A model generated the notes under the pieces. That model was not told the DNA's origin, did no database searches, and saw only the letters and a list, made by a program, of their open reading frames with translations. A program made the position numbers and the translations under genes. Of a stretch of DNA of 64,000 bases, positions 11,314 to 29,590 are shown in pieces. How positions within the stretch are numbered: the first letter of the stretch is position 1; each line of letters begins with the position of its first letter. Source of the stretch: a virus; the IMG/VR virus record IMGVR_UViG_3300021964_000018, positions 64,001-128,000 of that record; one strand, given 5' to 3'.

Positions 11314-12115
11314 AGGACCTGAAGTAAAAAGAAATACTGACTTCTTAAATCGCCAACTGTCAGGAAAACAAATAGAGGAAATAAAAATTCTATCAGGAAG
11401 ATATACTAAAGCAAAAGGACCGTTTGTAGGTTACGAAAAGATGTTAGAAAAAATGCTAATAATTTCAGAAGTTCTTTGCAAAGGTAAGTTTATTTATTTT
11501 AAATTTCAAGATGGAACTTCTTTATGGTCAACACTAGGAATGTCTGCAGCTTGGCAGAAAAAAGAAACAAAACATTCTAGAATTTACATTAAAACAAATT
11601 ATGGTAACGAAGTTTTCTTTAACGACATTAGAAATTTTGGTACTTTAAAATATGTTGAAACAGAAAAAGAATTAAAGGATAAACTAAAAACACTTGGTCC
11701 GGACGTTCTAAGCTCTTATGTAGACACAGAGTTGTTTAAAAGTCGTTTAGATAAAAAACCTAAGTGGTCAATTGCAAAGGCTCTTATGAACCAAACAGTT
11801 GTATCTGGCATAGGAAATTATTTAAAGGCTGAAATACTTTATGCAGCTAAAATTTCTCCACATAGGTTATGTGAAGATTTATCCTTGGAAGAAATAGAAT
11901 TAATTGCCGAAAAATCATTTGAAATAACAAATGCTTCATATCAATCAGGCGGTGCAACAATAATGACCTATAGAGACGAAAATAATGAAAAAGGTTTGTA
12001 TAGTAGGAGGTTTATGGTGTATAATCATAAAACTGACCCAATAGGTAATAAAGTAATAAAAGAAACAACAACAGACAAGCGTTCAACTTATTGGGTTCCT
12101 GAAATCCAAAAATAG
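11306..12115 (+). CDS. mutM: Fpg/Nei family DNA glycosylase/AP lyase, zincless-finger type
   Basis: MPEGPEV N-terminus, KGK, LGM, D.RNFG, LGPD, H2TH motif (LMNQ..VSGIGNYL..EILY). C-terminal R.TYWVPEIQ lacks the four Cys. Confidence 0.9.
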   Translation: MPEGPEVKRNTDFLNRQLSGKQIEEIKILSGRYTKAKGPFVGYEKMLEKMLIISEVLCKGKFIYFKFQDGTSLWSTLGMSAAWQKKETKHSRIYIKTNYGNEVFFNDIRNFGTLKYVETEKELKDKLKTLGPDVLSSYVDTELFKSRLDKKPKWSIAKALMNQTVVSGIGNYLKAEILYAAKISPHRLCEDLSLEEIELIAEKSFEITNASYQSGGATIMTYRDENNEKGLYSRRFMVYNHKTDPIGNKVIKETTTDKRSTYWVPEIQK

Positions 12116-12123
12116 GAGATAAT

Positions 12124-12339
12124 ATGAAATTAAATGATGAAGTAATCGCACACATTGCAAAACAATTACAACTGGCAATTTTGACTGGAACTGACATTGT
12201 TGATAACCTTCGAATGATTCGTTTAACTGCAGAAAATAATGAACTTTATTTGGATGCTGAATATTCAGAAATCGCTGAAGAAAACGAAAAAAGAATGCTT
12301 CAAGAAGCAGAAAAACTTGCATCACAGTTGGAAAATTAA
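12124..12339 (+). CDS. Hypothetical protein
   Basis: AGGAG SD; 71 aa ORF. Confidence 0.6.
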   Translation: MKLNDEVIAHIAKQLQLAILTGTDIVDNLRMIRLTAENNELYLDAEYSEIAEENEKRMLQEAEKLASQLEN

Positions 12340-12340
12340 T

Positions 12341-12724
12341 ATGAGTAATTGCAAACTTAAAGAAATGTTCGATTTGAGAGAGTCCTTTATTAAAAGGATG
12401 CAAAAAGAAAGACCGGGTTCATATCCAATACCTGTACCTTTAGAAAATCTTTCAGATAAAAAATCCCAGCAAGTTTGCAGAGATCTAGCTTTACGAGGTG
12501 TTGAAGAAATGTTTGAAGCACTTCAACACCTCAAAAACTGGAAACCTCACAAACTAACAGAAGATAAAGAATTCAACAAGGAAGAATTCTTAGAAGAAAT
12601 TGTGGATGCGTTCAATTATTTCATGGCTTTGTTAATTGTTGTAGATGTTGATGAAGAAAAACTATTTGAAGCATACCTTAAAAAAGATCAAAAAATTAGA
12701 AAAAGATTAGATGAAGGATACTAA
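12341..12724 (+). CDS. MazG-like / dimeric dUTPase-type nucleotide pyrophosphohydrolase
   Basis: EE..EA..HL.NWKPH...EEFLEEIVD motifs of all-alpha NTP-PPases. Confidence 0.75.
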   Translation: MSNCKLKEMFDLRESFIKRMQKERPGSYPIPVPLENLSDKKSQQVCRDLALRGVEEMFEALQHLKNWKPHKLTEDKEFNKEEFLEEIVDAFNYFMALLIVVDVDEEKLFEAYLKKDQKIRKRLDEGY

Positions 12725-13614
12725 TGAAACTTGAAACCCTATTCCAAATGCAAAAAGACTTTCAAGATAAACACGTTGGTTTAAAAGGTGATATTGAAGA
12801 AAGAACACAAAAGTTGGCATTATGCGCGCATTCTGAATTAAGCTCCATGATGGAAGCTGTTAATTATAAAATGCATCACAAGTATAGAGACATTCAGATG
12901 AATGCTGCCTCAGACAAAGTAATGTATGAAGCTGTTGATGTTGTGCGCTACATGATTGCTATCATGAATAACTGGCAGATAACACCAGAACAATTTGCAT
13001 TAGCTTATGATAAGAAAGACACTTATCTTCGAATGACTGCAGAAATTAATGAAAAGAAATGGGAGCAACAACCTGTTGTTATTGTTGACTTAGATGATGT
13101 GGTAGTAGATTTTAGGGTTTGTTTTGCCAATTGGCTTGAAGATAATTATGGTCTTAAAATAGACGTGGAATCTGAAGAATATTATTTTATTTCAGCATTG
13201 TCATCTATTGATGTTAATCCAGAAGCTGTATTTGAAAAATTTATGAACCAAGGTGGGTTTTCTCGACCAGACATTAATTCTGGTGTGTATCGCTATCTTT
13301 GGGATTTAAAAAATCAAGGTTTCTGGATTCAATATTTAACAGCAAGGCCTGGCGATAACCTTCGATGCGTTTATGATACGTATGATTGGATTGCAAAACA
13401 TAGCTTACCTTACGACGGTATTGATTTTTCAACAGAAAAATTTAGATGGTGTGCAAGATCTCGTTACTATAAACATATTAAATTTGCAATTGATGATTCA
13501 CCAAAGCATGCCTTAGAATATGCAAAGCATGGAATAGAATGTCATGTTCCTGTTAAATCATATAATAAACAAACAATCGGAATAAATAATATTAAACGGT
13601 ATAAAATATTTTAA
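12724..13614 (+). CDS. MazG-like domain fused to HAD 5'(3')-nucleotidase
   Basis: N-terminal SELS...NYKMH...YEAVD; C-terminal IVDLDDVVVD, LTARP, K, IDDSP (HAD motifs I-IV). Confidence 0.75.
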   Translation: MKLETLFQMQKDFQDKHVGLKGDIEERTQKLALCAHSELSSMMEAVNYKMHHKYRDIQMNAASDKVMYEAVDVVRYMIAIMNNWQITPEQFALAYDKKDTYLRMTAEINEKKWEQQPVVIVDLDDVVVDFRVCFANWLEDNYGLKIDVESEEYYFISALSSIDVNPEAVFEKFMNQGGFSRPDINSGVYRYLWDLKNQGFWIQYLTARPGDNLRCVYDTYDWIAKHSLPYDGIDFSTEKFRWCARSRYYKHIKFAIDDSPKHALEYAKHGIECHVPVKSYNKQTIGINNIKRYKIF

Positions 13615-13929: not shown

Positions 13930-14916
13930 ATGCCACAAAATAAAAATCTTACACCTGTTAAACTCCCAATGGAACTTAAATTTGGTCAAGAACCAAAAAC
14001 AAAATTTTATAATAATCTTGAACATCTTAAAGTTGAATTAGTTGATGCGCCCACCAGGTCCCAAGCCCTTAATGTTGCATGGCAATATGTAAAAGCAACA
14101 TGGGCTGATCATCATGACGAAACAAATCCAGCAACTGCTTCATTACAAGAATTGTCTGCAAACCTTGAAGATGTTCTTAACTTTCGTGCATTGCCAACAC
14201 CAATGGAATGTTTAGGTTTTACATTTAAGCTGTCCGGACTTTCATTTCAAGAAGTTACTCACATTATTCGTCATCGAGCCGGCTCTTTTGCAGCACAATG
14301 TACAGGTGATCGCGATCTTCGTGATGATCCAGCCGTTATCCCTGAGGCCGTTGAAAACAGTCCAGAGTTTTTGCAACGATATCGAAAAATTGTTCGTGAT
14401 TCAAAGCAACTTTATGCTGACATGTGTGACTCAAAAGACGTCTCTATGATGGATGCTCGAATGATTCTTCCAAAATGTATGACATCTTTTTATCTAATGC
14501 GTCTTAACCTTAAAGACCTATTAGGTTTTATTGCACAGCGTCAAGATATGCAAATTCAACCTGCAGCAGATAATATTCTTGCAGCTTATATGGCACGTGA
14601 GCTTTTAAAAGTTTTACCAGAAGCGTCAACACGAATTAATTTTAGTAAACCTGACATGCATTACATTAAGACTTTCCGTGTACCAGATGGTAAAGGCGGT
14701 GAAACATCACGTGGTACAAATCTTTATTGGCCAGAACCTAAAAATGATAAGTTTGAATATCACCCAAATGATACAATTTATCAGTCACGTCGAGAAGATA
14801 TTAATGGAACAAATAACCCAGGAACAAAAACAAAATTTACACAACTTTGGGAACAAGCTTTACACGAAATAGCAGGTATACAAATAGCTTATGCACAATT
14901 TATGGGTAGAATTTGA
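13930..14916 (+). CDS. thyX: Divergent ThyX-family flavin-dependent thymidylate synthase-like enzyme
   Basis: E...FTF.LSG....THIIRHRAGSFAAQCTGDR...DARMILP....N...L..FI..R. The canonical RHRx7S motif is altered. Confidence 0.75.
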   Translation: MPQNKNLTPVKLPMELKFGQEPKTKFYNNLEHLKVELVDAPTRSQALNVAWQYVKATWADHHDETNPATASLQELSANLEDVLNFRALPTPMECLGFTFKLSGLSFQEVTHIIRHRAGSFAAQCTGDRDLRDDPAVIPEAVENSPEFLQRYRKIVRDSKQLYADMCDSKDVSMMDARMILPKCMTSFYLMRLNLKDLLGFIAQRQDMQIQPAADNILAAYMARELLKVLPEASTRINFSKPDMHYIKTFRVPDGKGGETSRGTNLYWPEPKNDKFEYHPNDTIYQSRREDINGTNNPGTKTKFTQLWEQALHEIAGIQIAYAQFMGRI

Positions 14917-15998: not shown

Positions 15999-16442
15999 AT
16001 GAATAAATGTTATATTGCCAGCGGTTGGTTTTCACCTGAATGGCTAGAAGAATTAGAAACAATTAAATCTGTACTTGATAGTCTAAATTTAAAATACTTT
16101 TCACCAAAAGATGAAAATCTTTGCGAGCCGGATTCTGACGTTGGTTTTCAAGATCAAGTCTTTAACGGCAATATTAAAGGGATGGAAGAGTGTGATTGGA
16201 TGATCTGTAATACTCGTAATAAAGATATGGGTAGTATTTTTGAAGCAGGTTATTTTCATAAGTTAGGAAAACCAATTGTTTACTTTTGCGCCGGTCTTCC
16301 TCCTGGTGCGCAATTTAATCTTATGCTAGCTGCATCTGGTAAGACAGTTTGTACATCAATTAAACAACTCAAAGGCTATCTTATCGATTGCCAGGCAACA
16401 GGTGAAATTATTACTCGTCGTTATGAAGGAGATATTGAGTAA
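15999..16442 (+). CDS. Nucleoside 2-deoxyribosyltransferase / dNMP N-glycosidase family
   Basis: YIASGWF, FSP, D.GS.FEAG...GKPIV, N.ML motifs. Confidence 0.85.
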   Translation: MNKCYIASGWFSPEWLEELETIKSVLDSLNLKYFSPKDENLCEPDSDVGFQDQVFNGNIKGMEECDWMICNTRNKDMGSIFEAGYFHKLGKPIVYFCAGLPPGAQFNLMLAASGKTVCTSIKQLKGYLIDCQATGEIITRRYEGDIE

Positions 16443-17437
16443 TGAATATTTTTATTACTGGTGAAAAAGGTTTAATTGCACAAAATATTATTAAAGAAGC
16501 AAAAGAAAACTTTCCTGATGTAAATATTATTACAGGAGCTGTTGATTATCTTAATATGCATCAAGAAGGTGAACCTTGTGTTTATAAAAATTCAATTGAT
16601 CAATGGAAATTCTTTTTTGATTTAAATCAAATTGATGTAATTATTCACAATGCAGCTGTTGTTAATACAGAAGTTGTTGGCATGAATCTTGAGCGCGCAA
16701 CACGAACCAACGACGAAGGTACATATAAGATTTGCATGGCAGCACAAAAATGTGACATTCCTGTTTGTTATATGGGAACGACTGTTATCTATGATGCATT
16801 TAAATATCAAAACGAGAAAATAACAGAAGAATCATCACGTGGACCACATACACTTTACGGCTGTCAAAAGCTAGCAGCAGAATATATTGTTAAGTCTCAT
16901 GCACCGAAATGGATGATTATTCGACCTCTATTTGCATATGGCGGAGAAGGTGATATGAATTCACTAATTGCAAAGTCAATTTATGCATGTCTTAACGGAA
17001 AGCAAGTTGATATGCGCCTAGATCCAACAAAATACAAAGATTATATGCACGTTTCAGATTATGCTAATGCAGTCTTAACAGGAATTACACAGCACCTTTG
17101 GAATGACGAATGGAACATCGCGGCAGAAACACCTCATGTAACAGAAAACATTATCAAAATGATTGAAAAGATTTGTGGTTTAGACATGTCAAATACAATC
17201 AATTGGAAATCTACTTCAGACTATACAGGTAATCATAGGTTGGATTCTAGTAAGTTTAGAAATGCTACCGGCTGGTCTCCTAAAGTTATACTAACCAAAG
17301 GAATTAGAATGTCTTATGAAACAATTCTGAATTCGGAAGGTTATAATCCATTAACACACCTTGAAGAAGCAGAAAAAAGAAACATCGACGTGGGAGAATA
17401 CTTTAATGAAGCAAGAATTGCAAGAAAGTCTATTTAA
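16442..17437 (+). CDS. NAD-dependent nucleotide-sugar epimerase/dehydratase (extended SDR)
   Basis: IFITGEKGLIA (degenerate GxxGxxG), IIHNAA, YGCQK (YxxxK), R...AYG, DYMHVSD. Confidence 0.85.
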   Translation: MNIFITGEKGLIAQNIIKEAKENFPDVNIITGAVDYLNMHQEGEPCVYKNSIDQWKFFFDLNQIDVIIHNAAVVNTEVVGMNLERATRTNDEGTYKICMAAQKCDIPVCYMGTTVIYDAFKYQNEKITEESSRGPHTLYGCQKLAAEYIVKSHAPKWMIIRPLFAYGGEGDMNSLIAKSIYACLNGKQVDMRLDPTKYKDYMHVSDYANAVLTGITQHLWNDEWNIAAETPHVTENIIKMIEKICGLDMSNTINWKSTSDYTGNHRLDSSKFRNATGWSPKVILTKGIRMSYETILNSEGYNPLTHLEEAEKRNIDVGEYFNEARIARKSI

Positions 17438-17710: not shown

Positions 17711-18457
17711 ATGTCACATTCACAATATAAATGTCAAGTTCAAGGAAAAGAAAGTTATATTGATAATCAATTTGTTATCTTTTCTCAATCTTACTTAATG
17801 AATCAGGTTCATATCTACAATAAAGAAAAAGGTCACACAACAAAAAATCGAGTTAAATTATTAGAATTGGGATGTTATAACGGTCGTGTTATGCACTTTA
17901 TGACGCAACAAATGTTATTTGTTGATTATACAGGTGTTGATGTTACTCATCAGTATCTTGCACATTCACCGGTCGCAAATCGAAAAGACGTAACCTTGCT
18001 TTGCGAAGACGTAACAAAAGGATTGTCATTGGCTGACGGTTCTCAAGATATGATTATCAGCTCAGAAGTGTTAGAGCATATCAATCCAGAAGATTTACCA
18101 GGCGTAATGAGAACACTTTATAACAAGCTTAAAGTAGGTGGGCGATGTTGTGTTGCGTTTCCGATGAATACACGTGACACAATGTTTCACAATCTTGAAA
18201 AAGAACAAGGTTTAGGTCACGTTAATTTTCCTGTCTATGAAGACTTTATTGAACTTTGTGAAAACATCGGATTTACCTTACATCATTATGATAGTGGGTT
18301 TTCGCTTAAATCAAGTTTTAGAACACCTCGTTATGGAAAAGATCCGCTATATGACAAGTTAAGAGATCGACTAGGTTCACCTGCTGCTCGAGCTGTTTGG
18401 ATGACAATAACTGATGATCATACTGGTGGAGGATATTTTACTTTTGATAAGTTGTAA
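17711..18457 (+). CDS. Class I SAM-dependent methyltransferase
   Basis: LLELGC..G, YTGVD, D.I.SSEVLEHI, LK.GG. Confidence 0.85.
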   Translation: MSHSQYKCQVQGKESYIDNQFVIFSQSYLMNQVHIYNKEKGHTTKNRVKLLELGCYNGRVMHFMTQQMLFVDYTGVDVTHQYLAHSPVANRKDVTLLCEDVTKGLSLADGSQDMIISSEVLEHINPEDLPGVMRTLYNKLKVGGRCCVAFPMNTRDTMFHNLEKEQGLGHVNFPVYEDFIELCENIGFTLHHYDSGFSLKSSFRTPRYGKDPLYDKLRDRLGSPAARAVWMTITDDHTGGGYFTFDKL

Positions 18458-20447: not shown

Positions 20448-23400
20448 ATGCCAGTTCTTATCCCCCCACCGACCAAATTCGTCGGGCTTCATTGTCACTC
20501 AGGATTTAGCGTTTATGATGGTCTAGGTTATCCTGCTGATCATATTGATTTTGTGCTTGAAAATGGCATGGATGCCTGGGCTTTAACCGACCATGGAAAC
20601 GGTTCCGGTCTCGCACACGCACATAAACATGCCGAAAAACTCAGAAAGAAAGGTGTCAAGTATCGACAAATTTATGGTTGTGAATTTTATTTTGTGCCGT
20701 CGCTAAAACAATGGCGCGGTGATTATGAACAAGCAAAAATTGACCGTGCTGCTGCAAAACAAAAAGCAATCAAAGAAGAAGAGGAAGGTGGTCATATTAT
20801 TGAAAACGAAGAAGAAACCAAAACCTTTAAACTATCGAATGATGAATGGAAACGACGTTATCACTTGGTGATCACTGCGCAAAACGCCGAAGGTTTATCC
20901 AATCTCTTTACTCTGATTAAACGCGCCTATACAGATGGTTTCTACAGATATCCTCGAATTGATTTTGATCTTCTTAAAAAATATGGACGCGGTTTAAATG
21001 TGTCGACAGCTTGTCTTGGCGGCATATATTCAAATCGTATTATGCGTGGCAATGCGCTCAAATTATCAGACGAACAAATTCAATCTGAACTGTTGCAGCT
21101 ATCTGATCGTTTTGTTGATGCTGTCGGCGAAGATAATTTTTATCTTGAAGTTCAATTTAATCGACTTAAACAACAACACCTGGTAAATCATCATCTACTT
21201 CGACATGCTGATCAAACTGGTATTCCTCTTTTAGCAACAGCTGATTCTCATTACTATAGCCCGGATAAGTGGGAGGCGCGCGAATTGTATAAAAAACTTG
21301 GTTGGATGGGTGCTGATCCTAGTCCGCTACCTGAGTTTGAAGATTTAAAATGCGAACTATACCCTAAGAACGCAGAACAAATGTGGGGTGAGTTTACAAG
21401 ACATTATGATGAATACGAAGATACATACAAAGGTTATGAAGAAAAAATTAAAGGTGCCATTGAAAGATCGTATGAAATTGCCTGGGATAAATGCGAAGAC
21501 TGTTGGATTGATACTTCTGTTAAGCTTCCCGATTTTAACTCTCCTGAGTCGTCAGCTTTTCAAAAGCTGGGAAAAAAGGTCAAAGAGGCGCTTGTCAAAG
21601 AAGAATTGCACAAAAAACCAGAATATGTCGCCCGAGCAAAGGCAGAATTAGAAGATATCAAATACTTAGGATTTGAAAACTATTTCTTGGTGATGAATGA
21701 GGTATTTCATAAGGCGGCTGACCATACGCTGTTTGGTCCTGCCCGTGGTTCTGGTGGCGGTTCTTTGGTTAATTATTTGTTGGGAATTACTCAGGTTGAC
21801 CCGCTTAAATACGACCTTCTTTGGGAGCGGTTTCTCGGAAGACATCGAACATCTTGGCCTGACATTGATTCTGACGCTGGCGATCGCGATGCTCTTATAA
21901 ATGCAGCCCGAGAACTCTACGGTAATGAAGCTGTTATTCCTGTTTCAAACTTTAACACTCTTAAGCTTAAATCGCTAGTAAAAGATATTGCCAAGTTCTA
22001 TGGCATTGATTTTGGCGAAGTAAATAAAATGACCGGTCCATTACAAAGTGAAGTAATGGCTCAAGCACGCGATGAAAACACAGAAAAATCTGTGTTTGTC
22101 CTTAAACATGCGGATTGCATGAAATATTCAAAAGGCTATCGTGAGTTTATGGAAAAATATCCAAAAGTCAAAGATCACCTTGAAGCCTTATTCATGCAGA
22201 ACAGATCGGTTGGGCGTCATGCTGGCGGTGTTATTATTGGTCCACCCGAAGACCTTGAAAGGTCAATGCCTATTATCGGTGTTCGTGGTGAATTACAAAC
22301 TCCTTGGACGGAAGGTATGAACTTCAGAAATCTTGAGGATAATGGTTTTATTAAGTTTGACTTTCTTGGTTTGACGCTATTAAAAGACGTAGAAAACTGT
22401 ATTAGTCGAATTATTACTCGTGAAACAGGTAAGAAACCAACATTTCTCGAAATACGTGATTGGTTTGATAAACATCTAAATTGTCGTTATGTCACACAAG
22501 ATGATGAAAAGGTTTGGAAACATGTTTATCATCAACGAAGAAAAACAGGTGTCTTTCAATTTACTGCTGAAGGTGCTCGTAAGTTCTGTGAAAATGCCAA
22601 ACCAACTACAATTGAAGAATTAGCAGCATTAACAGCAATCTATCGTCCCGGTCCTCTTCGTGCTAATGTTCATAAAAAATATGTAAAGGATAAAGCCAAT
22701 GCGGAAAACATTGAATATGCACATCCTATTATTAAAGAAATCCTAGGCACGACTTTTGGTCATGTTACGTTTCAAGAACAGTTCATGCTTCTTGCACAGA
22801 AGCTAGGTGGATTCTCTCCGGCTGAATCTGATAAACTTAGAAAGACGTTAGTTAAAAAGTCATTGGATACTATGGGTAAGAAAGGTGATGAACGTGAAGC
22901 TGCTCGAATTAAATTCGTAACCGGTGCCAAAGAAATCAATGGTGTTCCGGAGCATGTATCACAAGAGTTATGGGAACGTATTGAATTCTTCTCGGTTTAT
23001 GGTTTCAATAAGTCTCATGCTATTGCCTATGCTTTGGATTCTTATTATGCAGCATGGTTGCATACTTATTATGAAACTGACTGGCTAGGTACTATTCTGG
23101 AATCCGAGAATAACAATCCTGATGCTTTGGCAAAGGCGATTAGTGAAATTAAGGCTATGGGCTTTGAAGTATCTACACCGGACATTAATGAATCAGGAAT
23201 TGCATGGACATGGTCCGAAAATAAAAAGGCGTTTATTCCACCCTTAACTTCGATTAAAGGTCTTGGTAAAAATGCTGTGAAAGAAATATTTGAAAATCGA
23301 CCTTACGAGTCAATTGATCAAATGTTATTTAATGAAGAAGGCAAATGGTATCACTCTAAACTTAACAAAACTGGATTTGCTGCATTGTGCAAGGTTGAGG

Positions 23401-23960
23401 CATTACATTCACTAAAAGAAATGTGGGATGGAACGATTAAAAATCACCGTCAGCTGCATGAAATTATTATTGAAAATTATGTTCTGCTTAAAAAATCTCG
23501 ATGGGGTATGACAATTCGTCAGGCCCAAAAGAAAGATGCACCTGACTTTTTCTTGCAATTAATTGATGATACAGCTGAAATTGAAGATTGGAATCGATTA
23601 GAAAAACTACAAATGTATCAGGATTTATGTTCAGCGACTCGTGATGACCTCGCATTTCCTGAAGAAATGTTAACTAAAATTCAATCATCAGGCGTCAAAT
23701 CAGTTTTACAGTTCGCGCCTGGTGAAAAATCAATTGGTTGGTTTTGTGTGATTGAATGGATTAAAAAGACAACCAAGAATAAGAAAACCTTTTATCGAAT
23801 TAAGATAACTGATAATCAAAATAATACAGGTTGGCTTCGAATGTGGGGTAATAAGCCTAGTTCAATGACTCCTTATTCTATCTGGCTGACTAAGGCGCAT
23901 AATGATCCGAATTGGGGTGCTTCAACAAGTGTCGCAAAAGTAAGACCTTTAATTGTGTAA
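20448..23960 (+). CDS. dnaE: DNA polymerase III alpha subunit (C family)
   Basis: PHP domain (LHCHS, ALTDHG, ADSHY); PARGSGGGSL, ERFL, PDIDSD, HAGG, KFDFLGL, YGFNKSHA motifs. Confidence 0.95.
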   Translation: MPVLIPPPTKFVGLHCHSGFSVYDGLGYPADHIDFVLENGMDAWALTDHGNGSGLAHAHKHAEKLRKKGVKYRQIYGCEFYFVPSLKQWRGDYEQAKIDRAAAKQKAIKEEEEGGHIIENEEETKTFKLSNDEWKRRYHLVITAQNAEGLSNLFTLIKRAYTDGFYRYPRIDFDLLKKYGRGLNVSTACLGGIYSNRIMRGNALKLSDEQIQSELLQLSDRFVDAVGEDNFYLEVQFNRLKQQHLVNHHLLRHADQTGIPLLATADSHYYSPDKWEARELYKKLGWMGADPSPLPEFEDLKCELYPKNAEQMWGEFTRHYDEYEDTYKGYEEKIKGAIERSYEIAWDKCEDCWIDTSVKLPDFNSPESSAFQKLGKKVKEALVKEELHKKPEYVARAKAELEDIKYLGFENYFLVMNEVFHKAADHTLFGPARGSGGGSLVNYLLGITQVDPLKYDLLWERFLGRHRTSWPDIDSDAGDRDALINAARELYGNEAVIPVSNFNTLKLKSLVKDIAKFYGIDFGEVNKMTGPLQSEVMAQARDENTEKSVFVLKHADCMKYSKGYREFMEKYPKVKDHLEALFMQNRSVGRHAGGVIIGPPEDLERSMPIIGVRGELQTPWTEGMNFRNLEDNGFIKFDFLGLTLLKDVENCISRIITRETGKKPTFLEIRDWFDKHLNCRYVTQDDEKVWKHVYHQRRKTGVFQFTAEGARKFCENAKPTTIEELAALTAIYRPGPLRANVHKKYVKDKANAENIEYAHPIIKEILGTTFGHVTFQEQFMLLAQKLGGFSPAESDKLRKTLVKKSLDTMGKKGDEREAARIKFVTGAKEINGVPEHVSQELWERIEFFSVYGFNKSHAIAYALDSYYAAWLHTYYETDWLGTILESENNNPDALAKAISEIKAMGFEVSTPDINESGIAWTWSENKKAFIPPLTSIKGLGKNAVKEIFENRPYESIDQMLFNEEGKWYHSKLNKTGFAALCKVEALHSLKEMWDGTIKNHRQLHEIIIENYVLLKKSRWGMTIRQAQKKDAPDFFLQLIDDTAEIEDWNRLEKLQMYQDLCSATRDDLAFPEEMLTKIQSSGVKSVLQFAPGEKSIGWFCVIEWIKKTTKNKKTFYRIKITDNQNNTGWLRMWGNKPSSMTPYSIWLTKAHNDPNWGASTSVAKVRPLIV

Positions 23961-24003: not shown

Positions 24004-24900
24004 ATGGTTAAGTTTCCTATTGAAAAAATTATAATTGAAGGTCCAGATTTAGCTGGAAAAACAACATTGCTTAATAAAATGCATGATATATCAAAATTCC
24101 GCTGGAATATACAAGATCGTTCTGCATTATCAATGCTAATTTATGCAAAAATGTATAATCGAGATACGTTTCACTTAGTTGAAAATCTTAAAAAAGAACT
24201 GTTTAATCTTAACAATCAAATTGTTTTATTACTACCACCTTTTGAAGTTTTATCAAAAAGGTTTCAAAAACGTGGTGATCCAATACAAAATTTAATATCA
24301 TTGCGAAAGCTTCATAAGCTATTTTCAGAATTTGAAGAAGAATATGGATCTTTACCAAACGTAACAGTTGTTAAAAAAGAAATTAGTGATCATGATTATA
24401 AATCAATTGTAGGTCGTTATCTTGCAATGGAACAACATGCTACAATACATCAATTTCCTGCTATGTGTGTTAATGCTGCTAATACACAGGATAACAAAGA
24501 AGTCGTTGGCCTTAGGTTTACTTATTTTGATGATGGCCAATTCACAGATGTTATTCCAGAACTTATGGAGTATAAAGGGGAAAAAGAATATTATCTTAAA
24601 ATTAGAGAAAAGTTGCATTATAAAATGATGCAAAATCATACTGACAGCCAAGATGTTTCTTCTAGAAGAATAATTTATAGCGATGATAGTTGTATTTCTT
24701 TGGCACATTTTTTAATACGTGAACAAATGTTTGATGCTAAGTTTTTTCTGCGATCATCAAATGTAAAAGATACTTTGAAATATGATATTAATTTTATTCA
24801 TTTTCTAACTAGTCATGTATATCAATCTTATCATTGCAATCAGCCTGTGAAAATAGAACTGACGTTAAACTCGGCACATATTTGTGATAGAATAGATTAG
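24004..24900 (+). CDS. dNMP (thymidylate) kinase fused to a thymidylate-synthase-like domain
   Basis: IIIEGPDLAGKTT, DRS, R..RGD; C-terminal SRR...SCISLAHF..R.......RSSN.....YD resembles the TS-fold core. Confidence 0.7.
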   Translation: MVKFPIEKIIIEGPDLAGKTTLLNKMHDISKFRWNIQDRSALSMLIYAKMYNRDTFHLVENLKKELFNLNNQIVLLLPPFEVLSKRFQKRGDPIQNLISLRKLHKLFSEFEEEYGSLPNVTVVKKEISDHDYKSIVGRYLAMEQHATIHQFPAMCVNAANTQDNKEVVGLRFTYFDDGQFTDVIPELMEYKGEKEYYLKIREKLHYKMMQNHTDSQDVSSRRIIYSDDSCISLAHFLIREQMFDAKFFLRSSNVKDTLKYDINFIHFLTSHVYQSYHCNQPVKIELTLNSAHICDRID

Positions 24901-24902
24901 TT

Positions 24903-25061
24903 ATGAAAAATGATAAGCTTTGGTTATTAATTGATGGCGTACTAAAAAAACTGCATCATGCAAAATTTTGGGCTACTTCTATTGATCCTCACAAAGAAGA
25001 TATAATAAAAGCAATAGAAGCTTTAGAATCTGCAAGAAAGAAAATTGAGGAAGAAAAATGA
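24903..25061 (+). CDS. Small hypothetical protein (52 aa, absent from ORF track)
   Basis: MKNDKLWLLIDG...EEEK*; fills the gap and has an ATGA overlap with dut. Confidence 0.5.
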   Translation: MKNDKLWLLIDGVLKKLHHAKFWATSIDPHKEDIIKAIEALESARKKIEEEK

Positions 25062-25468
25062 AAATTAATATTAAAAAACTGCATCCAAATGCAGTGATCC
25101 CTGCATATGCAAAACAAGGTGATGCAGGTATGGATTTAACAGCAATCGGAATAAAAGAAACCGGTTCTCACATCACATATCATACAGGTTTGGCAATAGA
25201 AATCCCAAGAGGTTATGTGGGTTTATTGTTTCCTAGAAGCTCAATCTATAAAACAGATCAGACACTAACAAATTCAGTAGGCGTTATTGATAGCGGGTAT
25301 CGAGGTGAAATTATGATGAAATTTACTCGAGGAATTAATCATTATTGTATTGGTGATAGAATTGGTCAAATTATGATTTTACCTTATCCGCAAATTGAAT
25401 TTGAAGAAGTTGATCAACTTTCAACTTCAGAAAGAGGGGCTAATGGCTATGGAAGCACAGGAGCCTAA
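25058..25468 (+). CDS. dut: Trimeric dUTPase
   Basis: AGMDL, PRSS, GVIDSGYRGEI, RIGQ, RG.NGYGSTG motifs. Confidence 0.95.
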   Translation: MKINIKKLHPNAVIPAYAKQGDAGMDLTAIGIKETGSHITYHTGLAIEIPRGYVGLLFPRSSIYKTDQTLTNSVGVIDSGYRGEIMMKFTRGINHYCIGDRIGQIMILPYPQIEFEEVDQLSTSERGANGYGSTGA

Positions 25469-25682
25469 TCTAAATTCAGAAGCATATGAATATATTATTT
25501 ATGAGAATAATAAACTAATAGTTTTTCCTTCACCTTCTGGTATGCACGCAGGAATGAAAAGACATTATTATTTTAAAAAAGTTTTTAATGAATATCATTT
25601 GACAATTGTAAATAGGAAATCTTGGGAAAAATTAAAAAATCAATATAAAGTAAAAGTTTTAAAAATTAAGGAGAAAGAATGA
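25449..25682 (+). CDS. Hypothetical protein
   Basis: Tiles between dut and the epimerase. Confidence 0.45.
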   Translation: MEAQEPNLNSEAYEYIIYENNKLIVFPSPSGMHAGMKRHYYFKKVFNEYHLTIVNRKSWEKLKNQYKVKVLKIKEKE

Positions 25683-26710
25683 AAAAAGCACTCGTAACAG
25701 GTGGCTGCGGATTTATCGGTAGTAATCTTACAAAAGAATTAATAAAACAAGGTTGGCAAGTCGATATTGTTGATGACATGTCTAATGGTCATTTAGAGTT
25801 GTTAGGCGGTTTAAAATTTAAAACGCTTCCAAATGCATCTTTTGTTTATCATTTTATGAATCAGATGAAAGGAAAAACACAAAGGGCTAAGAATACTGTG
25901 CTTGTAATTCAAGATGATTTTGCTGCACCAGCGCTTCTTGATTATATTGAAACAAATGCTTACGATGTAATATTTCACCAAGCAGCAGTTCCGAGAGTAA
26001 GTTATTCAGTTGAGTTTCCTTATGAAACTACAATTAATAACATTGCAAAAACTGTATCACTTTTCGATGCTGCTAAAGGTCATGTTAAAAGAATTGTTAA
26101 TGCATCATCTTCATCAGTTTATGGCGGGGCTGATAAATTACCTACTAAGGAAAGTGAAAATCAAAAAAGCCCAAAGTCTCCTTATGCATGGCAAAAAAGT
26201 GCGATTGAAGATTATTCAAAAATCTGTGCCGATTTATATGATTTAGACATTGTAAATTTAAGATATTTTAATGTTTTCGGCCCAGGTCAATATGGTAATA
26301 GTCCTTATTCAACGGCGGTGTCTGCATGGTGTCATGCAATTAAAAATGGATTAGAATGTAGATCTGACGGTGATGGAGAGCAAACCCGCGATATGTGTTA
26401 TATAGACAATATTGTATCAGCTAATATTTTAGCAGCATATGCAACCGGAAAATTTAAAGGTTTGGCATATAATGTTGCATGTGGAGACAGGGTCTCAAAC
26501 AATGAAATTTTAAATTATCTTAAAAACCAGTTTGGAGATCGAGTTAAAGTAAAAAATGCTCCAGAAAGACCAGGTGATGTAAAACATACACAGGCAGATA
26601 TCAGTTGTGCAACACAAGATTTTGGTTATAAACCTCTTGTTCAGTTTTGGGAAGGTTTGGAAAGAACAATCGAGTGGTGGGAAATAAAACCTGACGAATC
26701 AAATAAATAG
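25679..26710 (+). CDS. NDP-sugar 4-epimerase (GalE/WbpP-like SDR)
   Basis: VTGGCGFIGS, HQAA, ASSSSVYG, SPYAWQK, LRYFNVFGP, GDGEQTRD, RPGDV. Confidence 0.9.
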   Translation: MKKALVTGGCGFIGSNLTKELIKQGWQVDIVDDMSNGHLELLGGLKFKTLPNASFVYHFMNQMKGKTQRAKNTVLVIQDDFAAPALLDYIETNAYDVIFHQAAVPRVSYSVEFPYETTINNIAKTVSLFDAAKGHVKRIVNASSSSVYGGADKLPTKESENQKSPKSPYAWQKSAIEDYSKICADLYDLDIVNLRYFNVFGPGQYGNSPYSTAVSAWCHAIKNGLECRSDGDGEQTRDMCYIDNIVSANILAAYATGKFKGLAYNVACGDRVSNNEILNYLKNQFGDRVKVKNAPERPGDVKHTQADISCATQDFGYKPLVQFWEGLERTIEWWEIKPDESNK

Positions 26711-26736: not shown

Positions 26737-27579
26737 ATGAAACTTGAACCATCACTTGTTGATTGTGTAATTTATCACGCAAATTGTACAGATGGTTTCG
26801 GTGCTGCATACTCAGCATGGAAGCTTTTAGGAAATCGTGCTGAGTATCATGCATGTGTGCATGGCCAAAAGCCACCTGACGTCAAAGGAAAGAATGTTGT
26901 TATACTTGATTTCTCCTTTGACAATAAAACAACTAAAAAATTAATTGAAAAAGCAGAAAACCTTTTAATTATCGATCATCACAAATCTGCAATGGTTGAA
27001 TTACACGATATCAGCAATACACATTTTGACATGACAAAGTCAGGAGCAATGTTATCATGGGAATGGTTTCACCCAGGAAAAGAGCCACCTAAGTTTATTC
27101 AATATATCATGGATAGAGACTTATGGAAATGGGAATTGCCATACTCGAAAGAATTTTCAGCTGCGTTTGATATGGTACCTTATGAATTTGAAGAATTTGA
27201 AAAGTTTGAAGATGATTCAGTTTTTGATGATGCAGTTAAGCGAGGAAGTTTTATTCTTGCATATTCAAAAACTGTAATTAAAAAAGTTTGTGATAAAGCT
27301 GTGCCTAAAAAATTAGACAATAGTAATGTCATGGTCGTTAACAGTTCTCATTGGATGTCAGAAATTGGTGCAAGATTAGCTCCTGACTGTGATTATGCAC
27401 TTATTTGGTATTATGATCATGCAGTTCAAGAATGTCGGGTAAGCCTTCGCGCATTTCATGATAATGTCGATGTTTCAGAAGTAGCCAAAAAGTTTGGAGG
27501 CGGTGGCCACAAGAAGGCTGCTGGTTTTACGTTAAAAGGAAAAATGGTAATTGATGATATTTTTGACAAGGAAAAATAA
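26737..27579 (+). CDS. DHH/DHHA1 phosphoesterase
   Basis: YH..C.DG, LDFS, IDHH, D.DLW, SLR, GGGGH..AAGF. Confidence 0.9.
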   Translation: MKLEPSLVDCVIYHANCTDGFGAAYSAWKLLGNRAEYHACVHGQKPPDVKGKNVVILDFSFDNKTTKKLIEKAENLLIIDHHKSAMVELHDISNTHFDMTKSGAMLSWEWFHPGKEPPKFIQYIMDRDLWKWELPYSKEFSAAFDMVPYEFEEFEKFEDDSVFDDAVKRGSFILAYSKTVIKKVCDKAVPKKLDNSNVMVVNSSHWMSEIGARLAPDCDYALIWYYDHAVQECRVSLRAFHDNVDVSEVAKKFGGGGHKKAAGFTLKGKMVIDDIFDKEK

Positions 27580-28188
27580 ATGTTAACGGCAATGGGCGAC
27601 GTTATGCGAAAAGCACACGAAAAAGGATGGATTACAACAAGAGATGGTAATGTATCTGTTAAAATGACAGGAAAAGATATCCTATATATAACACCTTCTG
27701 GTTGGCGAAAGACAATATTGCATCCTGAACATATTATTAAAGTTAAATTTACCCCTGCAGGTTTAAACGTTCCAGAAGGAACAACACCTTCTGGGGAATT
27801 GCATATGCATTCAAAGCTTCAACGGTTTGCAAAATATACGAGATCGGTTGTTCACCTTCACCCCACAAATATTATTGCAGCAATGTATGCCGGCTGGAAT
27901 TTGCAATCGTTGGCAGCAGAATTTCCTGAGGTATCACGTTATACAAGGGTTGGACCAACTGTTCCAGTTCTTCCTGTCACGTCGAATATACTTGCTGAAG
28001 AAACATTTGAGGCTTTTACTGATTTTGAAGGTACCGGATCTAATAAACTTAAGTTTGATATTGTTGGTCAAAAAAATCATGGAGTTTGTGCAGTAGGCGC
28101 AAATCCATGGGATGCTTATGAACATATTGAAAGGTTAGAACACATTTGTGAAATAGCCTTAAAAAGTGGAAGAAGACCTAATGAATAG
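27580..28188 (+). CDS. Class II aldolase/adducin family protein
   Basis: GNVS, ITPSG, PSGE..MH, VVHLHP, NHG. Confidence 0.85.
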   Translation: MLTAMGDVMRKAHEKGWITTRDGNVSVKMTGKDILYITPSGWRKTILHPEHIIKVKFTPAGLNVPEGTTPSGELHMHSKLQRFAKYTRSVVHLHPTNIIAAMYAGWNLQSLAAEFPEVSRYTRVGPTVPVLPVTSNILAEETFEAFTDFEGTGSNKLKFDIVGQKNHGVCAVGANPWDAYEHIERLEHICEIALKSGRRPNE

Positions 28189-28591
28189 ACCAGAATGGGA
28201 TGATATATGGATGGGTTTTGCTCAAAGTATTGCTAAGAGATCTTGTGATTCAAAATATCAAGTTGGTGCCGTCGTTGTAAATTCAGAAAACACACAAGTT
28301 CTTTCAATAGGATATAATGGTGATCAAAAAGGTGGGTCAAATCAAAGGGACTCTACTGAAACCGGTCAATCAGGATTTATTCATGCAGAAATCAATGCAT
28401 TAATTAAGATGGACTATAATAACCCATGTAAGAAAAAAATGTATTTGACTCTTTCGCCTTGTGAAGTCTGTGCAAAAGCAATCGTCAATGCAGGAATAAC
28501 AGCAGTCGTTTATTCTAAAGAATATGAGCACGGAAAAAAAGGAATATCTATTTTAAATGATGCAGGAATAGTGGTAAGAAACATTAAATGA
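28181..28591 (+). CDS. dCMP deaminase
   Basis: RP.WD, VGAV, GYNG, HAEINA, PCEVC. Confidence 0.9.
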   Translation: MNRPEWDDIWMGFAQSIAKRSCDSKYQVGAVVVNSENTQVLSIGYNGDQKGGSNQRDSTETGQSGFIHAEINALIKMDYNNPCKKKMYLTLSPCEVCAKAIVNAGITAVVYSKEYEHGKKGISILNDAGIVVRNIK

Positions 28592-28888: not shown

Positions 28889-29590
28889 ATGGACATGTTA
28901 TTTAATCAAAAGGCAAAGCAAATCATTAAAGATACTCTTAAAACTAGTGAACAAGGATTAAATGAATCTTTTGTTTCGCAGGAAAAGCAATTTGATATCA
29001 ATACAGACTTTCTATCAGAAAAAAATATTAATAATCATAAAGAATTATATAAGAGTTATATTGAAAATTTCAATAAAGTCAGTGCAAAACTAGATTCAGC
29101 AGATAGGTCTAGTGCAGACAAAAATCATTCTGAGTTTCGTTCACTTAAACTTGACGAAACTTTTAATATGAACGGTGCTTATCTTCATGAATTATATTTT
29201 GCCAACATTGCAGATGCTAATTCTCAAATCAATATGGATTCTTTATCTTTTATGCGGATCAATAGAGACTTTGGCTCTTTCGATGCATGGCAAAAAGATT
29301 TGATCGCATGTGGTAAAAGTGCAAGAAATGGATGGGTTATTACATATTTGAACATGTATACACAATCTTATATGAATTGTTTTATTGACCTTCATTCTAA
29401 AAACGTACCGGTTGGAATGTATCCTGTTATTGTAATAGATATGTGGGATCATTCTTATTACAAAGATTATCTTAAAGACTCAAAAACATATTTGATTGCG
29501 ATGATGAAGCAATTAAAATGGAATGTTATTGAAGAAAGAATTAAAAAAGCAGATAAATTATTACAAGTTTTGAGAGGCCATGATGTATAG
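28889..29590 (+). CDS. Fe/Mn superoxide dismutase-like protein
   Basis: H..LY..Y, NG..LHELYF, FGSF..W, GW, H, DMWDHSYY.DY. Confidence 0.85.
   Translation: MDMLFNQKAKQIIKDTLKTSEQGLNESFVSQEKQFDINTDFLSEKNINNHKELYKSYIENFNKVSAKLDSADRSSADKNHSEFRSLKLDETFNMNGAYLHELYFANIADANSQINMDSLSFMRINRDFGSFDAWQKDLIACGKSARNGWVITYLNMYTQSYMNCFIDLHSKNVPVGMYPVIVIDMWDHSYYKDYLKDSKTYLIAMMKQLKWNVIEERIKKADKLLQVLRGHDV

What the first reader, a model, noticed from the sequence alone, without database searches (positions are those of the whole stretch)
24004..24900. dNMP kinase fused to a minimal thymidylate-synthase-fold domain
Seen: a P-loop kinase followed by SRR...SCISLAHF...RSSN...YD, which parallels the TS core (catalytic Cys, RSxD, and Asp at the specificity site as in dCMP-modifying enzymes) but looks too short for the folate-binding parts. 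A ThyX-like gene is also present, so ordinary dTMP synthesis would be redundant. Inference: a folate-independent pyrimidine C5-modifying enzyme coupled to the kinase for its product.
Basis: partly seen in the sequence, partly recalled or inferred. Interest (0 to 1): 0.7.

Follow-up and report, generated by a model that had tools for sequence, protein, structure and literature searches.

The report
Nucleotide kinase fused to stripped-down thymidylate-synthase domain
An uncultured marine giant phage encodes one protein that joins a nucleotide kinase to a miniature thymidylate-synthase-type domain. The domain keeps its nucleotide-binding and catalytic residues but lacks the folate-binding parts, so it probably makes and then phosphorylates a modified cytosine nucleotide for the phage's DNA.

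Summary
ORF 24004-24900 (298 aa) has two domains.

- **Kinase domain (residues 1-145):** a YorR/dTMP-kinase-like P-loop kinase (VIA Z 13.5 to 2axp).
- **TS-fold domain (residues 146-298):** a true thymidylate-synthase fold. The AF2 model has pLDDT 95. The best Foldseek hit is the flavin-dependent dCMP 5-hydroxylase AfhB (E 9.5e-7). hhalign against RB69 gp48-type 5hodCMP synthases gives 96-97% probability, E about 1e-9.
- **Residues kept:** Cys230 (=C146), R221/R222, R250/S251, Asp261 (=N177D, the cytosine-type residue), H292 and Y196. These are 95-100% conserved across orthologues.
- **Parts lost:** the helix-B/W80-W83 cofactor wall, the C-terminal lid and R21.

The fusion sits directly after DnaE in 80 of 80 related IMG/VR contigs, inside a nucleotide-metabolism module. 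Known 5-hydroxycytosine phages carry a homologous kinase as a separate gene beside their synthase.

My best reading is a bifunctional enzyme that modifies dCMP at C5 without folate, most likely by hydroxylation, and then phosphorylates the product. The chemistry is inferred. The Asn253 "hydroxylase signature" switches between N, D and E among close orthologues, and I found no glycosyltransferase.

This is a new variant of a known kind. The scan had already flagged this stretch in overlapping windows of the same genome, not on other DNA.

The parts
24004..24900 (+). Whole gene: 298-aa kinase/TS-fold fusion protein (P0001), stop codon included
   Evidence: ORF list and translation. It is a single ORF of about 300 aa in more than 190 metagenomic orthologues and in 80 of 80 IMG/VR loci.
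24004..24438 (+). N-terminal YorR/dTMP-kinase-like P-loop nucleotide kinase domain (aa 1-145)
   Evidence: Pfam Thymidylate_kin E 3.8e-6. PDB profile hit to YorR 2axp E 3.4e-14. VIA Z 13.5 to 2axp and 11.5 to dTMP kinase. hhalign to the RB69 gp45 family 97.5-98%, E 5e-12.
24040..24066 (+). P-loop GPDLAGKTT (G13, G18, K19 conserved 98-100%)
24115..24120 (+). DR motif (D38-R39), the counterpart of the DRY/DRx motif of dTMP kinases; R39 is 100% conserved
24259..24279 (+). LID-type segment RFQKRGD (R86 100%, R90/G91/D92 at least 95%)
24439..24897 (+). C-terminal minimal thymidylate-synthase-fold domain (aa 146-298)
   Evidence: Foldseek top hits AfhB 9iqu/9iqc, ThyA, MilA and T4 dCH. VIA Z 11.9/11.0/10.2/8.7. 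hhalign versus the 5hodCMP synthase family E about 1e-9.
24499..24501 (+). Glu166 (93-97% conserved). It aligns with the invariant Glu43 of RB69 gp48-type enzymes and Glu35 of T4 dCH, which is Leu in E. coli ThyA.
24580..24594 (+). EKEYY: Glu193 (97-100%) and Tyr196 (91-100%). Tyr196 aligns with gp48 Tyr116 (= E. coli Tyr94). An alternative alignment puts Glu193 near T4 dCH Glu60/62.
24661..24669 (+). SRR (S220, R221, R222) = the E. coli ThyA S125-R126-R127 phosphate clamp, which the partner subunit donates in TS
24691..24693 (+). Cys230 = the catalytic nucleophile (E. coli C146, T4 dCH C148); 95-100% conserved
24751..24762 (+). RSSN: R250/S251 = R166/S167. N253 sits at the D169 cofactor-contact position and switches between N, D and E among orthologues.
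24784..24786 (+). Asp261 = E. coli N177 / T4 dCH D179, the cytosine-specificity residue; 98% conserved
   Evidence: meaning of the residue from PMC13326640
24877..24879 (+). His292 = E. coli H207 (SAHI versus GDTH / SAHV); 95-98% conserved
20448..23960 (+). DnaE-type DNA polymerase gene immediately upstream. This is context, not part of the protein.
   Evidence: Adjacent in 80 of 80 related loci

Best explanation
The gene encodes a bifunctional nucleotide-modifying enzyme. [quoted passage not shown]

Proposed mechanism:
1. The domain binds a cytosine 5'-mononucleotide, most likely dCMP. The phosphate is held by R221/R222/R250/S251, the base by Asp261 and the sugar 3'-OH by His292.
2. Cys230 attacks C6, which makes C5 nucleophilic.
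3. C5 then takes up an electrophile that is not delivered by a classically bound folate, because the folate-binding wall and lid are deleted. The best candidate is oxygen from a flavin hydroperoxide, giving 5-hydroxy-dCMP as in phage AfhB / RB69 gp48.
4. The fused YorR/dTMP-kinase-like domain phosphorylates the modified dNMP to the dNDP. It can then reach the triphosphate pool and be incorporated by the adjacent DnaE polymerase.

Shown here: the two folds, the residue correspondences, their conservation, the fusion and its synteny.

Inferred: that the domain is catalytically active, the substrate, the electrophile, and that the kinase acts on the product.

Rough odds: TS fold 0.97; active Cys-dependent C5 chemistry on a cytosine nucleotide 0.65; hydroxylation specifically 0.3; kinase acts on the product 0.5.
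For: - **Fold:** AF2 pLDDT 95.3. Foldseek's best hits are AfhB 9iqu at 9.5e-7 and 9iqc at 5.3e-6, ahead of all ThyA chains. VIA Z is 11.9 for AfhB, 10-11 for ThyA and 10.2 for MilA.
- **Sequence:** only TS-family chains are hit in the PDB. hhalign to the 5hodCMP synthase family gives 93% and 96-97%, E 1.7e-9 to 2.3e-10, with the deeper profile. T4 dCH gives 80%, E 1.7e-6. E. coli ThyA gives only 8%.
- **Branch-specific residues shared with gp48 and T4 dCH:** E166, R239 and D261.
- **Conservation:** the active-site set C230, R221, R222, Y196, E193, R250, S251, D261 and H292 is 95-100% conserved in two sequence sets. The kinase residues K19, D38, R39, R86 and R90 are equally conserved.
- **Fusion logic:** in DLP3 the YorR-like kinase gp78 lies beside the synthase gp80. 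The same pairing occurs in RB69 (gp45/gp48) and RL38J1 (gp214/gp216) (PMC13326640; RB69 map). The RB69 gp45 family is homologous to the N-terminal domain. Efficient 5hodC incorporation needed a co-expressed dNMP kinase.
- **Context:** MazG-type NTP pyrophosphatases, dCMP deaminase, dUTPase and a ThyX-like gene lie around DnaE. There is no canonical ThyA or dCH in the 141-kb record.
- **Independent support:** ESM Atlas neighbours are small viral PF00303-bearing proteins.
Against: - About 70 residues that are invariant in 5hodCMP synthases are missing (INRI..Y..F.FMISGGT.., NFNTF, and the 16 aa before the Cys). So are the R21 equivalent and the C-terminal lid. It is therefore unclear where any cofactor would bind.
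- Asn253, the D169N 'hydroxylase' signature, is not stable. In 80 IMG/VR orthologues it is N in 26, D in 38 and E in 15 (one has a gap). The tree of 81 sequences (those 80 plus the window protein) needs at least 11 changes, some between close relatives in identical context.
- Pfam PF00303 gives no hit even at E 10.
- No GT1, GT2 or GT4 glycosyltransferase, NDP-sugar pyrophosphorylase, DHFR or flavin reductase was found in the record, which is about 54% complete.
- The conserved neighbours TK, dCMP deaminase and ThyX-like would also fit plain thymidylate metabolism with the kinase acting as dTMP kinase.
- In RB69 the experimentally shown 5hodCMP kinase is the gp1-type dNMPK, not the gp45-type kinase.
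- Structure alone does not separate AfhB from ThyA, since the Z difference is under 1.
Confidence: 0.5

Rival explanations
1. The protein is a phage dTMP/dNMP kinase whose TS-like domain is non-catalytic. On this view the domain is a dCMP/dNMP-binding regulatory or scaffolding module, for example one that docks the kinase into a dNTP-synthesising complex with the ThyX-like enzyme, dCMP deaminase and DnaE.
For: - The cofactor wall, the lid and R21 are lost.
- The conserved neighbours are thymidine kinase (70 of 80 loci), dCMP deaminase (70 of 80) and DnaE (80 of 80), which makes a thymidylate-centred module.
- The kinase scores best against dTMP kinase models.
Against: - The nucleophile Cys230 is conserved 95-100%. 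So are Y196 and E193, which are residues needed for chemistry rather than binding.
- The specificity residue is Asp (cytosine type), not Asn.
- The D169-equivalent position stays polar (N, D or E) rather than drifting.
Confidence: 0.2
2. The domain is a folate-dependent dCMP hydroxymethylase or methylase, like T4 gp42 or XP12-type enzymes, with a remodelled folate site. That site could be completed by the fused kinase domain or by the dimer partner. It would make 5hm-dCMP or 5m-dCMP, which the kinase then phosphorylates.
For: - By HMMER, T4 dCH is the best PDB sequence hit (E 0.022, against 0.27 for AfhB).
- Most of the more distant orthologues carry Asp or Glu at the D169 position, the state seen in folate enzymes.
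- Acidic residues precede the Cys (D227/D228), as at L143D/E in hydroxymethylases.
Against: - The segments carrying E58, I79/W80/W83 and the C-terminal tail, which hold the pterin and PABA-Glu in TS and dCH, are deleted.
- No DHFR is present in the record.
- The best structural and profile matches are to the flavin enzymes.
Confidence: 0.15
3. The domain belongs to a MilA/MilB-like route. It would modify a cytosine (ribo)nucleotide, which the neighbouring NDT-family N-glycosidase then cleaves or transfers. The product would be a free modified base or an exchanged nucleoside rather than a direct DNA precursor.
For: - MilA is a strong structural match (Z 10.2; Foldseek 1.2e-4).
- An NDT-family gene lies at 15999-16442 and recurs within 10 kb in 39-41 of the 80 loci.
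Against: - NDT is absent from about half of the loci, whereas DnaE is universal.
- Fusion to an NMP kinase argues that the product stays a nucleotide.
- His292 (H207, the contact to the deoxyribose 3'-OH) is conserved.
Confidence: 0.1

Closest known systems
Flavin-dependent dCMP 5-hydroxylase / 5hodCMP synthase (phage HY126 AfhB, PDB 9iqu/9iqc; RB69 gp48; DLP3 gp80)
   Same: - TS fold; best Foldseek and profile match.
- Catalytic Cys, the SRR clamp, RS-x-N in this protein, Asp at the N177 position, a SAH(I/V) motif, and the shared E166/R239 equivalents.
- Folate-independent precedent.
- Sits with a TMPK/YorR-like kinase gene.
   Different: - About 153 aa instead of 217-238.
- Lacks the invariant INRI...GGT...NFNTF block, the 16-aa insert before the Cys, R37 (the R21 equivalent) and the C-terminal end.
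- The Asn is not conserved among orthologues.
- Fused to the kinase rather than encoded separately.
- No Pfam PF00303 hit.
T4 gp42 dCMP hydroxymethylase (PDB 1b49/1b5d)
   Same: Best HMMER PDB hit. C148, R168/S169, D179 and H216 align with C230, R250/S251, D261 and H292. hhalign gives 80%, E 1.7e-6 over the whole domain.
   Different: T4 dCH has the folate-binding helix with E60 and the C-terminal part, and Asp at the D169 position. It has 246 aa and is a stand-alone protein.
Thymidylate synthase ThyA (PF00303)
   Same: Same core fold (Z 10-11) and the same catalytic Cys / Arg-Ser phosphate site.
   Different: ThyA has Asn at 177, which gives dUMP specificity, and full folate-binding elements. 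hhalign to E. coli ThyA gives only 8% probability. There is no Pfam hit.
YorR (B. subtilis SPbeta prophage, PDB 2axp/3kb2) and dTMP kinases; RB69 gp45 / DLP3 gp78 'nucleotide kinases'
   Same: The N-terminal domain shares the EGPDxxGK(T/S)T P-loop, the DR motif and the R..RGD LID. Z is 13.5 to YorR. hhalign to the gp45 family gives 98%.
   Different: - Below NCBIfam's dTMP-kinase equivalog cut-off (32 bits against 83).
- RB69 gp45 has a 36-aa insert and lacks the RGD LID.
- None of these is fused to a TS-fold domain.
- The substrates of YorR and gp45 are unknown.

Membership tests
Thymidylate synthase / dCMP hydroxymethylase superfamily (fold level) | TS alpha/beta fold with a central sheet carrying the catalytic loop | tested here: met
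   Foldseek probability 0.97-1.00 for about 48 TS-family chains. VIA Z 10-12 with 143-150 residues aligned.
Thymidylate synthase / dCMP hydroxymethylase superfamily (fold level) | Match to Pfam PF00303 at the gathering threshold | tested here: not met
   No PF00303 hit at E up to 10. No hit in the whole 141-kb record either.
Thymidylate synthase / dCMP hydroxymethylase superfamily (fold level) | Catalytic cysteine (E. coli C146) | tested here: met
   Cys230 aligns with T4 dCH C148 and the AfhB Cys. It is 95-100% conserved.
Thymidylate synthase / dCMP hydroxymethylase superfamily (fold level) | 5'-phosphate site R126'/R127'/R166/S167 | tested here: met
   R221, R222, R250 and S251 align and are 95-100% conserved.
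Thymidylate synthase / dCMP hydroxymethylase superfamily (fold level) | Fourth phosphate arginine (E. coli R21) | tested here: not met
   The segment aligned to gp48 R37-G39 has no conserved Arg.
Thymidylate synthase / dCMP hydroxymethylase superfamily (fold level) | Folate-binding elements (helix B with E58, I79/W80/W83 loop, C-terminal lid) | tested here: not met
   hhalign shows about 45-residue and C-terminal deletions covering these segments. The domain has about 153 aa against 238-264.
Thymidylate synthase / dCMP hydroxymethylase superfamily (fold level) | Obligate homodimer with a shared active site | not testable with these tools
   Only monomer prediction is available. Conservation of SRR suggests a dimer but does not show it.
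5hodCMP synthase (AfhB / RB69 gp48 type) | Asn in place of D169 (diagnostic residue per PMC13326640) | tested here: inconclusive
   This protein has N253. Orthologues in the same context switch between N 26, D 38 and E 15, and the tree of 81 sequences (these plus the window protein) needs at least 11 changes.
5hodCMP synthase (AfhB / RB69 gp48 type) | Asp in place of N177 (dCMP specificity) | tested here: met
   Asp261 is 98% conserved.
5hodCMP synthase (AfhB / RB69 gp48 type) | Acidic residue at L143 (three residues before the Cys) | tested here: inconclusive
   D227 and D228 precede C230. Position 228 is D or E in 84% of orthologues, and position 227 varies. The register is uncertain because of a 16-aa gap.
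5hodCMP synthase (AfhB / RB69 gp48 type) | Family-invariant N-terminal half (R37, G39, INRI, GGT, NFNTFYGPR) | tested here: not met
   Only E43 and Y116 have counterparts (E166, Y196). The rest is deleted.
5hodCMP synthase (AfhB / RB69 gp48 type) | Flavin binding and O2-dependent hydroxylation of dCMP | not testable with these tools
   This needs biochemistry. The He et al. 2026 paper is not held.
dTMP kinase / YorR-like P-loop NMP kinases | P-loop GxxxxGK[ST], DRx motif, LID arginines | tested here: met
   GPDLAGKTT, D38-R39 and R86/R90 are 96-100% conserved.
dTMP kinase / YorR-like P-loop NMP kinases | Fold | tested here: met
   VIA Z 13.5 to YorR 2axp and 10.6-11.5 to dTMP kinases.
dTMP kinase / YorR-like P-loop NMP kinases | Curated model cut-offs (Pfam PF02223, 27 bits; NCBIfam TIGR00041, 83.25 bits) | tested here: inconclusive
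   Pfam gives 27.2 bits, just over the cut-off. TIGR00041 gives 32.4 bits, far below it. The domain is therefore a relative of bona fide dTMP kinase, not an equivalog.

The most novel reading that the evidence does not exclude
A large, uncultured clade of marine giant phages with a DnaE polymerase replaces cytosine with a C5-modified base made by a new, minimal class of TS-fold enzyme. This enzyme would have no cofactor-binding wall of its own. It would complete its active site with the covalently fused kinase domain or a partner flavoprotein such as the rewired ThyX paralogue, and channel the product directly into phosphorylation. That would be an undescribed catalytic architecture, and possibly an undescribed modification, within the thymidylate synthase superfamily.
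Probability: 0.25. Interest if true: 0.85.

Novelty: new variant of a known kind. Interest (0 to 1): 0.66.

Why it matters
TS-superfamily enzymes set which pyrimidine a phage puts into its DNA: T, 5hmC, 5hmU, 5mC and, since 2025-26, 5hoC. Here the same catalytic core appears in its smallest known form, about 150 aa, with no recognisable folate or flavin wall. It is permanently fused to a nucleotide kinase and locked next to the replicative polymerase in at least 80 IMG/VR contigs and in hundreds of marine metagenome proteins.

If the domain is active, three things follow:
- It would point to widespread cytosine modification in abundant, uncultured ocean phages. That bears on restriction and CRISPR evasion, on sequencing bias, and on how metaviromes are interpreted.
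- It would define the minimal set of residues needed for Cys-dependent C5 chemistry.
- The fusion would act as a 'Rosetta stone', assigning a role to the unexplained YorR/gp45-type kinases that accompany 5hodCMP synthases in RB69, DLP3 and RL38J1.

The protein is small, soluble-looking and easy to test by expression and LC-MS.

Tried and rejected
- **Family libraries:** Pfam, PHROGs and NCBIfam give no TS assignment for the C-terminal half. PHROGs offers only phrog_35203, of unknown function.
- **Single-sequence searches:** phmmer against the PDB found nothing. tblastn against 50,697 cultured-phage records found nothing, so no cultured relative is known.
- **Structure libraries:** BFVD shows separate TMPK-like and TS-like viral proteins but no convincing two-domain counterpart.
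- **Split forms:** the search for stand-alone short forms returned only contig-end fragments.
- **Closed or unsuitable tools:** The genome-contig scan with P0001 found no relative, and alignments A1 and A2 were not accepted for that collection. Host and prophage occurrence are therefore untested.
- **Literature:** He et al. 2026 (Nat Chem Biol; AfhB structure and mechanism) is not held, so I could not map the flavin-contact residues.
- **D169N signature:** I first took N253 as strong evidence for hydroxylation. I downgraded it after finding repeated N/D/E switching among syntenic orthologues.
- **Glycosylated-5hoC pathway:** GT1 (PF00534), GT2 (PF00535), GT1_4 (PF13692), NTP_transferase (PF00483), DHFR (PF00186) and flavin reductase (PF01613) were all absent from the 141-kb record, which is about 54% complete. 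Divergent DNA glycosyltransferases would be missed. This neither supports nor excludes glycosylation.
- **Domain geometry:** model coordinates are not exposed, so I could not measure how the kinase and TS active sites lie relative to each other.
Full report
**What is there.** The window is part of a 141-kb IMG/VR viral record, about 54% complete by CheckV, so the genome is probably over 200 kb. ORF 24004-24900 (+) encodes 298 aa. It has an AAGGAG ribosome-binding site and starts 44 nt after the stop of a 1170-aa DnaE-type polymerase gene.

**N-terminal domain (aa 1-145).**
- Pfam gives Thymidylate_kin (E 3.8e-6, 27.2 bits, at the cut-off) and dNK.
- PHROGs gives phrog_761, 'thymidylate kinase'.
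- NCBIfam's dTMP-kinase equivalog scores far below its cut-off.
- A family profile hits the SPbeta prophage protein YorR (2axp/3kb2) at E 3.4e-14, and dTMP kinases more weakly.
- The AF2 model superposes on YorR with Z 13.5 (rmsd 2.6 over 137 residues) and on dTMP and dN kinases with Z 10.6-11.5.
- The P-loop (K19), D38-R39 and the LID R86/R90-G-D are 96-100% conserved.

This is a catalytically intact YorR/dTMP-kinase-like nucleotide kinase whose exact substrate is unknown.

**C-terminal domain (aa 146-298).** No family library recognises it. Single-sequence phmmer against the PDB finds nothing. The evidence for a TS fold comes from structure and profiles:
- The AF2 model, built on a 64-sequence alignment, is very confident (pLDDT 95.3, pTM 0.91).
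- Foldseek against the PDB returns only TS-superfamily chains at the top. The first two are the 2025 structures of phage HY126 AfhB, a flavin-dependent dCMP hydroxylase (9iqu at 9.5e-7, 9iqc at 5.3e-6). Next come human, bacterial and viral ThyA, MilA and T4 dCMP hydroxymethylase.
- A Foldseek-independent search gives Z 11.9 for AfhB (150 residues aligned), 10.0-11.0 for ThyA, 10.2 for MilA and 8.7 for T4 dCH. These alignments cover essentially the whole 153-residue domain.
- A profile of the C-terminal half alone hits seven PDB sequences at E below 10, and all are TS family: T4 dCH 0.022, AfhB 0.27.
- hhalign against a 25-sequence alignment of RB69 gp48-type 5hodCMP synthases gives 93%, E 3e-7. 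With a 192-sequence profile it gives 96-97%, E 1.7e-9 to 2.3e-10 over 129-150 columns.
- Against single sequences, T4 dCH gives 80% (E 1.7e-6) and E. coli ThyA only 8%.
- ESM-Atlas neighbours are small viral proteins, some of which carry PF00303.

The TS fold is therefore established. The domain belongs nearer the dCMP-modifying branch than to ThyA.

**Residue map.** The HMMER and hhalign alignments reproduce the published catalytic numbering of T4 dCH (C148, D179, E60), which validates the register.

| This protein | Equivalent |
|---|---|
| S220-R221-R222 | E. coli S125-R126-R127 |
| C230 | C146 |
| R250-S251 | R166-S167 |
| N253 | D169 |
| D261 | N177 (Asp in dCMP enzymes) |
| H292 | H207 |
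| Y196 | gp48 Y116 = Y94 |
| E166, R239 | residues invariant in gp48-type enzymes and present in T4 dCH, but not in ThyA |

In 192 metagenomic and 81 IMG/VR orthologues these residues are 91-100% conserved, and they are the most conserved positions of the domain.

**What is missing.**
- The roughly 45-residue stretch that in TS, dCH and gp48 forms helix B (E58/E60) and the W80/W83 wall.
- A 16-residue insert before the Cys.
- The R21 equivalent.
- The C-terminal lid.

**Distribution and context.** The fusion is a family, not a one-off.
- 369 proteins score at E below 1e-3 in the 90%-clustered database.
- 236 representatives are found at the 50% clustering level, nearly all about 300 aa and covering both domains.
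- Sources are Tara and other marine metagenomes.
- No cultured phage carries it, and no close relative exists in prokaryote genomes.
- The DnaE is under 30% identical to any cultured phage's.

In 80 IMG/VR loci the gene always follows DnaE (80 of 80). It usually precedes an NDP-sugar-type SDR (72 loci), a thymidine kinase (70), a DHH phosphoesterase (60) and a dCMP deaminase (70). A ThyX-like gene (30-31), an NDT-family gene (39-41) and MazG/MazG-HAD genes (19-21) often lie within 10 kb. In the window itself the neighbours are:

| Coordinates | Gene |
|---|---|
| 12239-13614 | MazG and MazG-HAD |
| 13930-14916 | ThyX-like |
| 15999-16442 | NDT |
| 16442-17437 and 25679-26710 | SDRs |
| 17711-18457 | methyltransferase |
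| 25058-25468 | dUTPase |
| 26737-27579 | DHH |
| 27580-28188 | class II aldolase |
| 28166-28591 | dCMP deaminase |

The record has no canonical ThyA or dCH.

**Link to known biology.** Lee et al. (NAR 2026, PMC13326640) showed that RB69 gp48, DLP3 gp80 and diverse TS homologues make 5-hydroxy-dCMP from dCMP using O2 and a loosely bound flavin. They proposed N177D plus D169N as the signature. Robust incorporation into DNA needed a co-expressed dNMP kinase. Their Table 1 lists a 'nucleotide kinase' of YorR/TMPK type beside the synthase in all three model phages: DLP3_078, RB69p045 and RL38J1_214.

I confirmed the RB69 arrangement, with gp45 three genes from gp48. I also showed that the gp45 family is homologous over its full length to the N-terminal domain here (hhalign 97.5-98%, E 5e-12 to 8e-13). 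The marine gene therefore fuses the two components that travel together in 5hoC phages.

**Most likely mechanism.**
1. The TS-fold domain binds dCMP. This follows from the phosphate clamp, Asp261 and His292.
2. Cys230 adds to C6.
3. The activated C5 captures an electrophile supplied without a classical folate site.
4. The kinase converts the product to the diphosphate for the DnaE replisome.

MazG-type pyrophosphatases could provide dCMP and exclude dCTP, as in T-even phages; this step rests on established knowledge and inference, not on a test here.

Hydroxylation by a flavin hydroperoxide is the leading candidate because AfhB/gp48 are the best structural and profile matches and this protein has RSSN. 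I hold that loosely, at about 0.3, for three reasons:
- The region carrying most gp48-family invariants is deleted.
- Position 253 flips among N, D and E at least 11 times on the orthologue tree, including between close relatives in identical context. Either it does not determine the chemistry here, or the chemistry diversifies as it does between T4 and RB69.
- No glycosyltransferase, sugar nucleotidyltransferase, flavin reductase or DHFR was detected in the partial record.

That position 253 always stays N, D or E suggests something polar, perhaps a cofactor, still binds there.

**Rivals.**
- A non-catalytic nucleotide-binding or scaffold domain on a phage dTMP/dNMP kinase (0.2). The thymidylate-centred neighbours support it. 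The near-absolute conservation of Cys230, Y196 and E193 argues against it.
- A folate-dependent hydroxymethylase or methylase with a remodelled site (0.15).
- A MilA/MilB-like route together with the NDT enzyme (0.1).

**Novelty.** I found no description of a kinase/TS-fold fusion or of a 150-aa TS core. The NAR paper does not mention fusions. Both domains belong to known superfamilies and the pathway logic is known. What is new is the architecture: the minimal cofactor-less core, the covalent fusion, the strict coupling to DnaE, and the occurrence in an uncultured marine clade. I class it as a new variant of a known kind.

**Earlier notes of this scan.** Other notes flag the same stretch in overlapping windows of the same genome and describe the surrounding cluster and the rewired ThyX. 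I checked the gene content independently but not their pathway claims.

Noticed in passing
window 53285-53652 (+): ARAGORN calls a tmRNA gene with tag peptide ANNNKHFALAA inside this phage record.
   Followed up: no
window 13930-14916 (+): The ThyX-like protein (Pfam Thy1, 66 bits) carries RHRAGSFAAQC. That is RHR-x7-Cys where canonical ThyX has RHR-x7-Ser (recalled from memory, not tested). It has 328 aa, with a long C-terminal extension.
   Followed up: partly
L002:15337-15915 and 69 other loci; window 27580-28188: A thymidine kinase (PF00265, E 1e-40) sits between the SDR and DHH genes in 70 of 80 related contigs. It is missing from that module in the window, which instead has a class II aldolase/AraD-like gene after DHH. 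The aldolase was found in only 1 of the 80 loci.
   Followed up: partly
window 28889-29590 (+): An Fe/Mn superoxide-dismutase-like protein (Sod_Fe_C, E 1.4e-16) is conserved downstream of dCMP deaminase in 65 of 80 related loci. That is unusual for a replication or nucleotide module.
   Followed up: no
window 25679-26710 (+) and 16442-17437 (+): Two NDP-sugar epimerase/dehydratase-type SDRs are present. The first is adjacent to the fusion gene in about 70 of 80 loci. No glycosyltransferase or sugar nucleotidyltransferase was detectable in the record, so the SDR substrate is unexplained.
   Followed up: partly
L022:11921-12979: Some relatives carry an IMP dehydrogenase / GMP reductase gene (PF00478, E 1.7e-92) directly after the SDR next to the fusion gene.
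   Followed up: no
L001:4048-4596 (RB69 gp45): The RB69 gp45-type kinase in the 5hoC cluster lacks the R..RGD LID arginines that are invariant in the marine fusion and in YorR. It also has a 36-aa insert after the P-loop helix, so its activity may differ.
   Followed up: no
window 11306-12115 (+): A phage-encoded Fpg/Nei-type DNA glycosylase with all three Pfam domains lies in the same module. It recurs in about 10 of 80 related loci.
   Followed up: no
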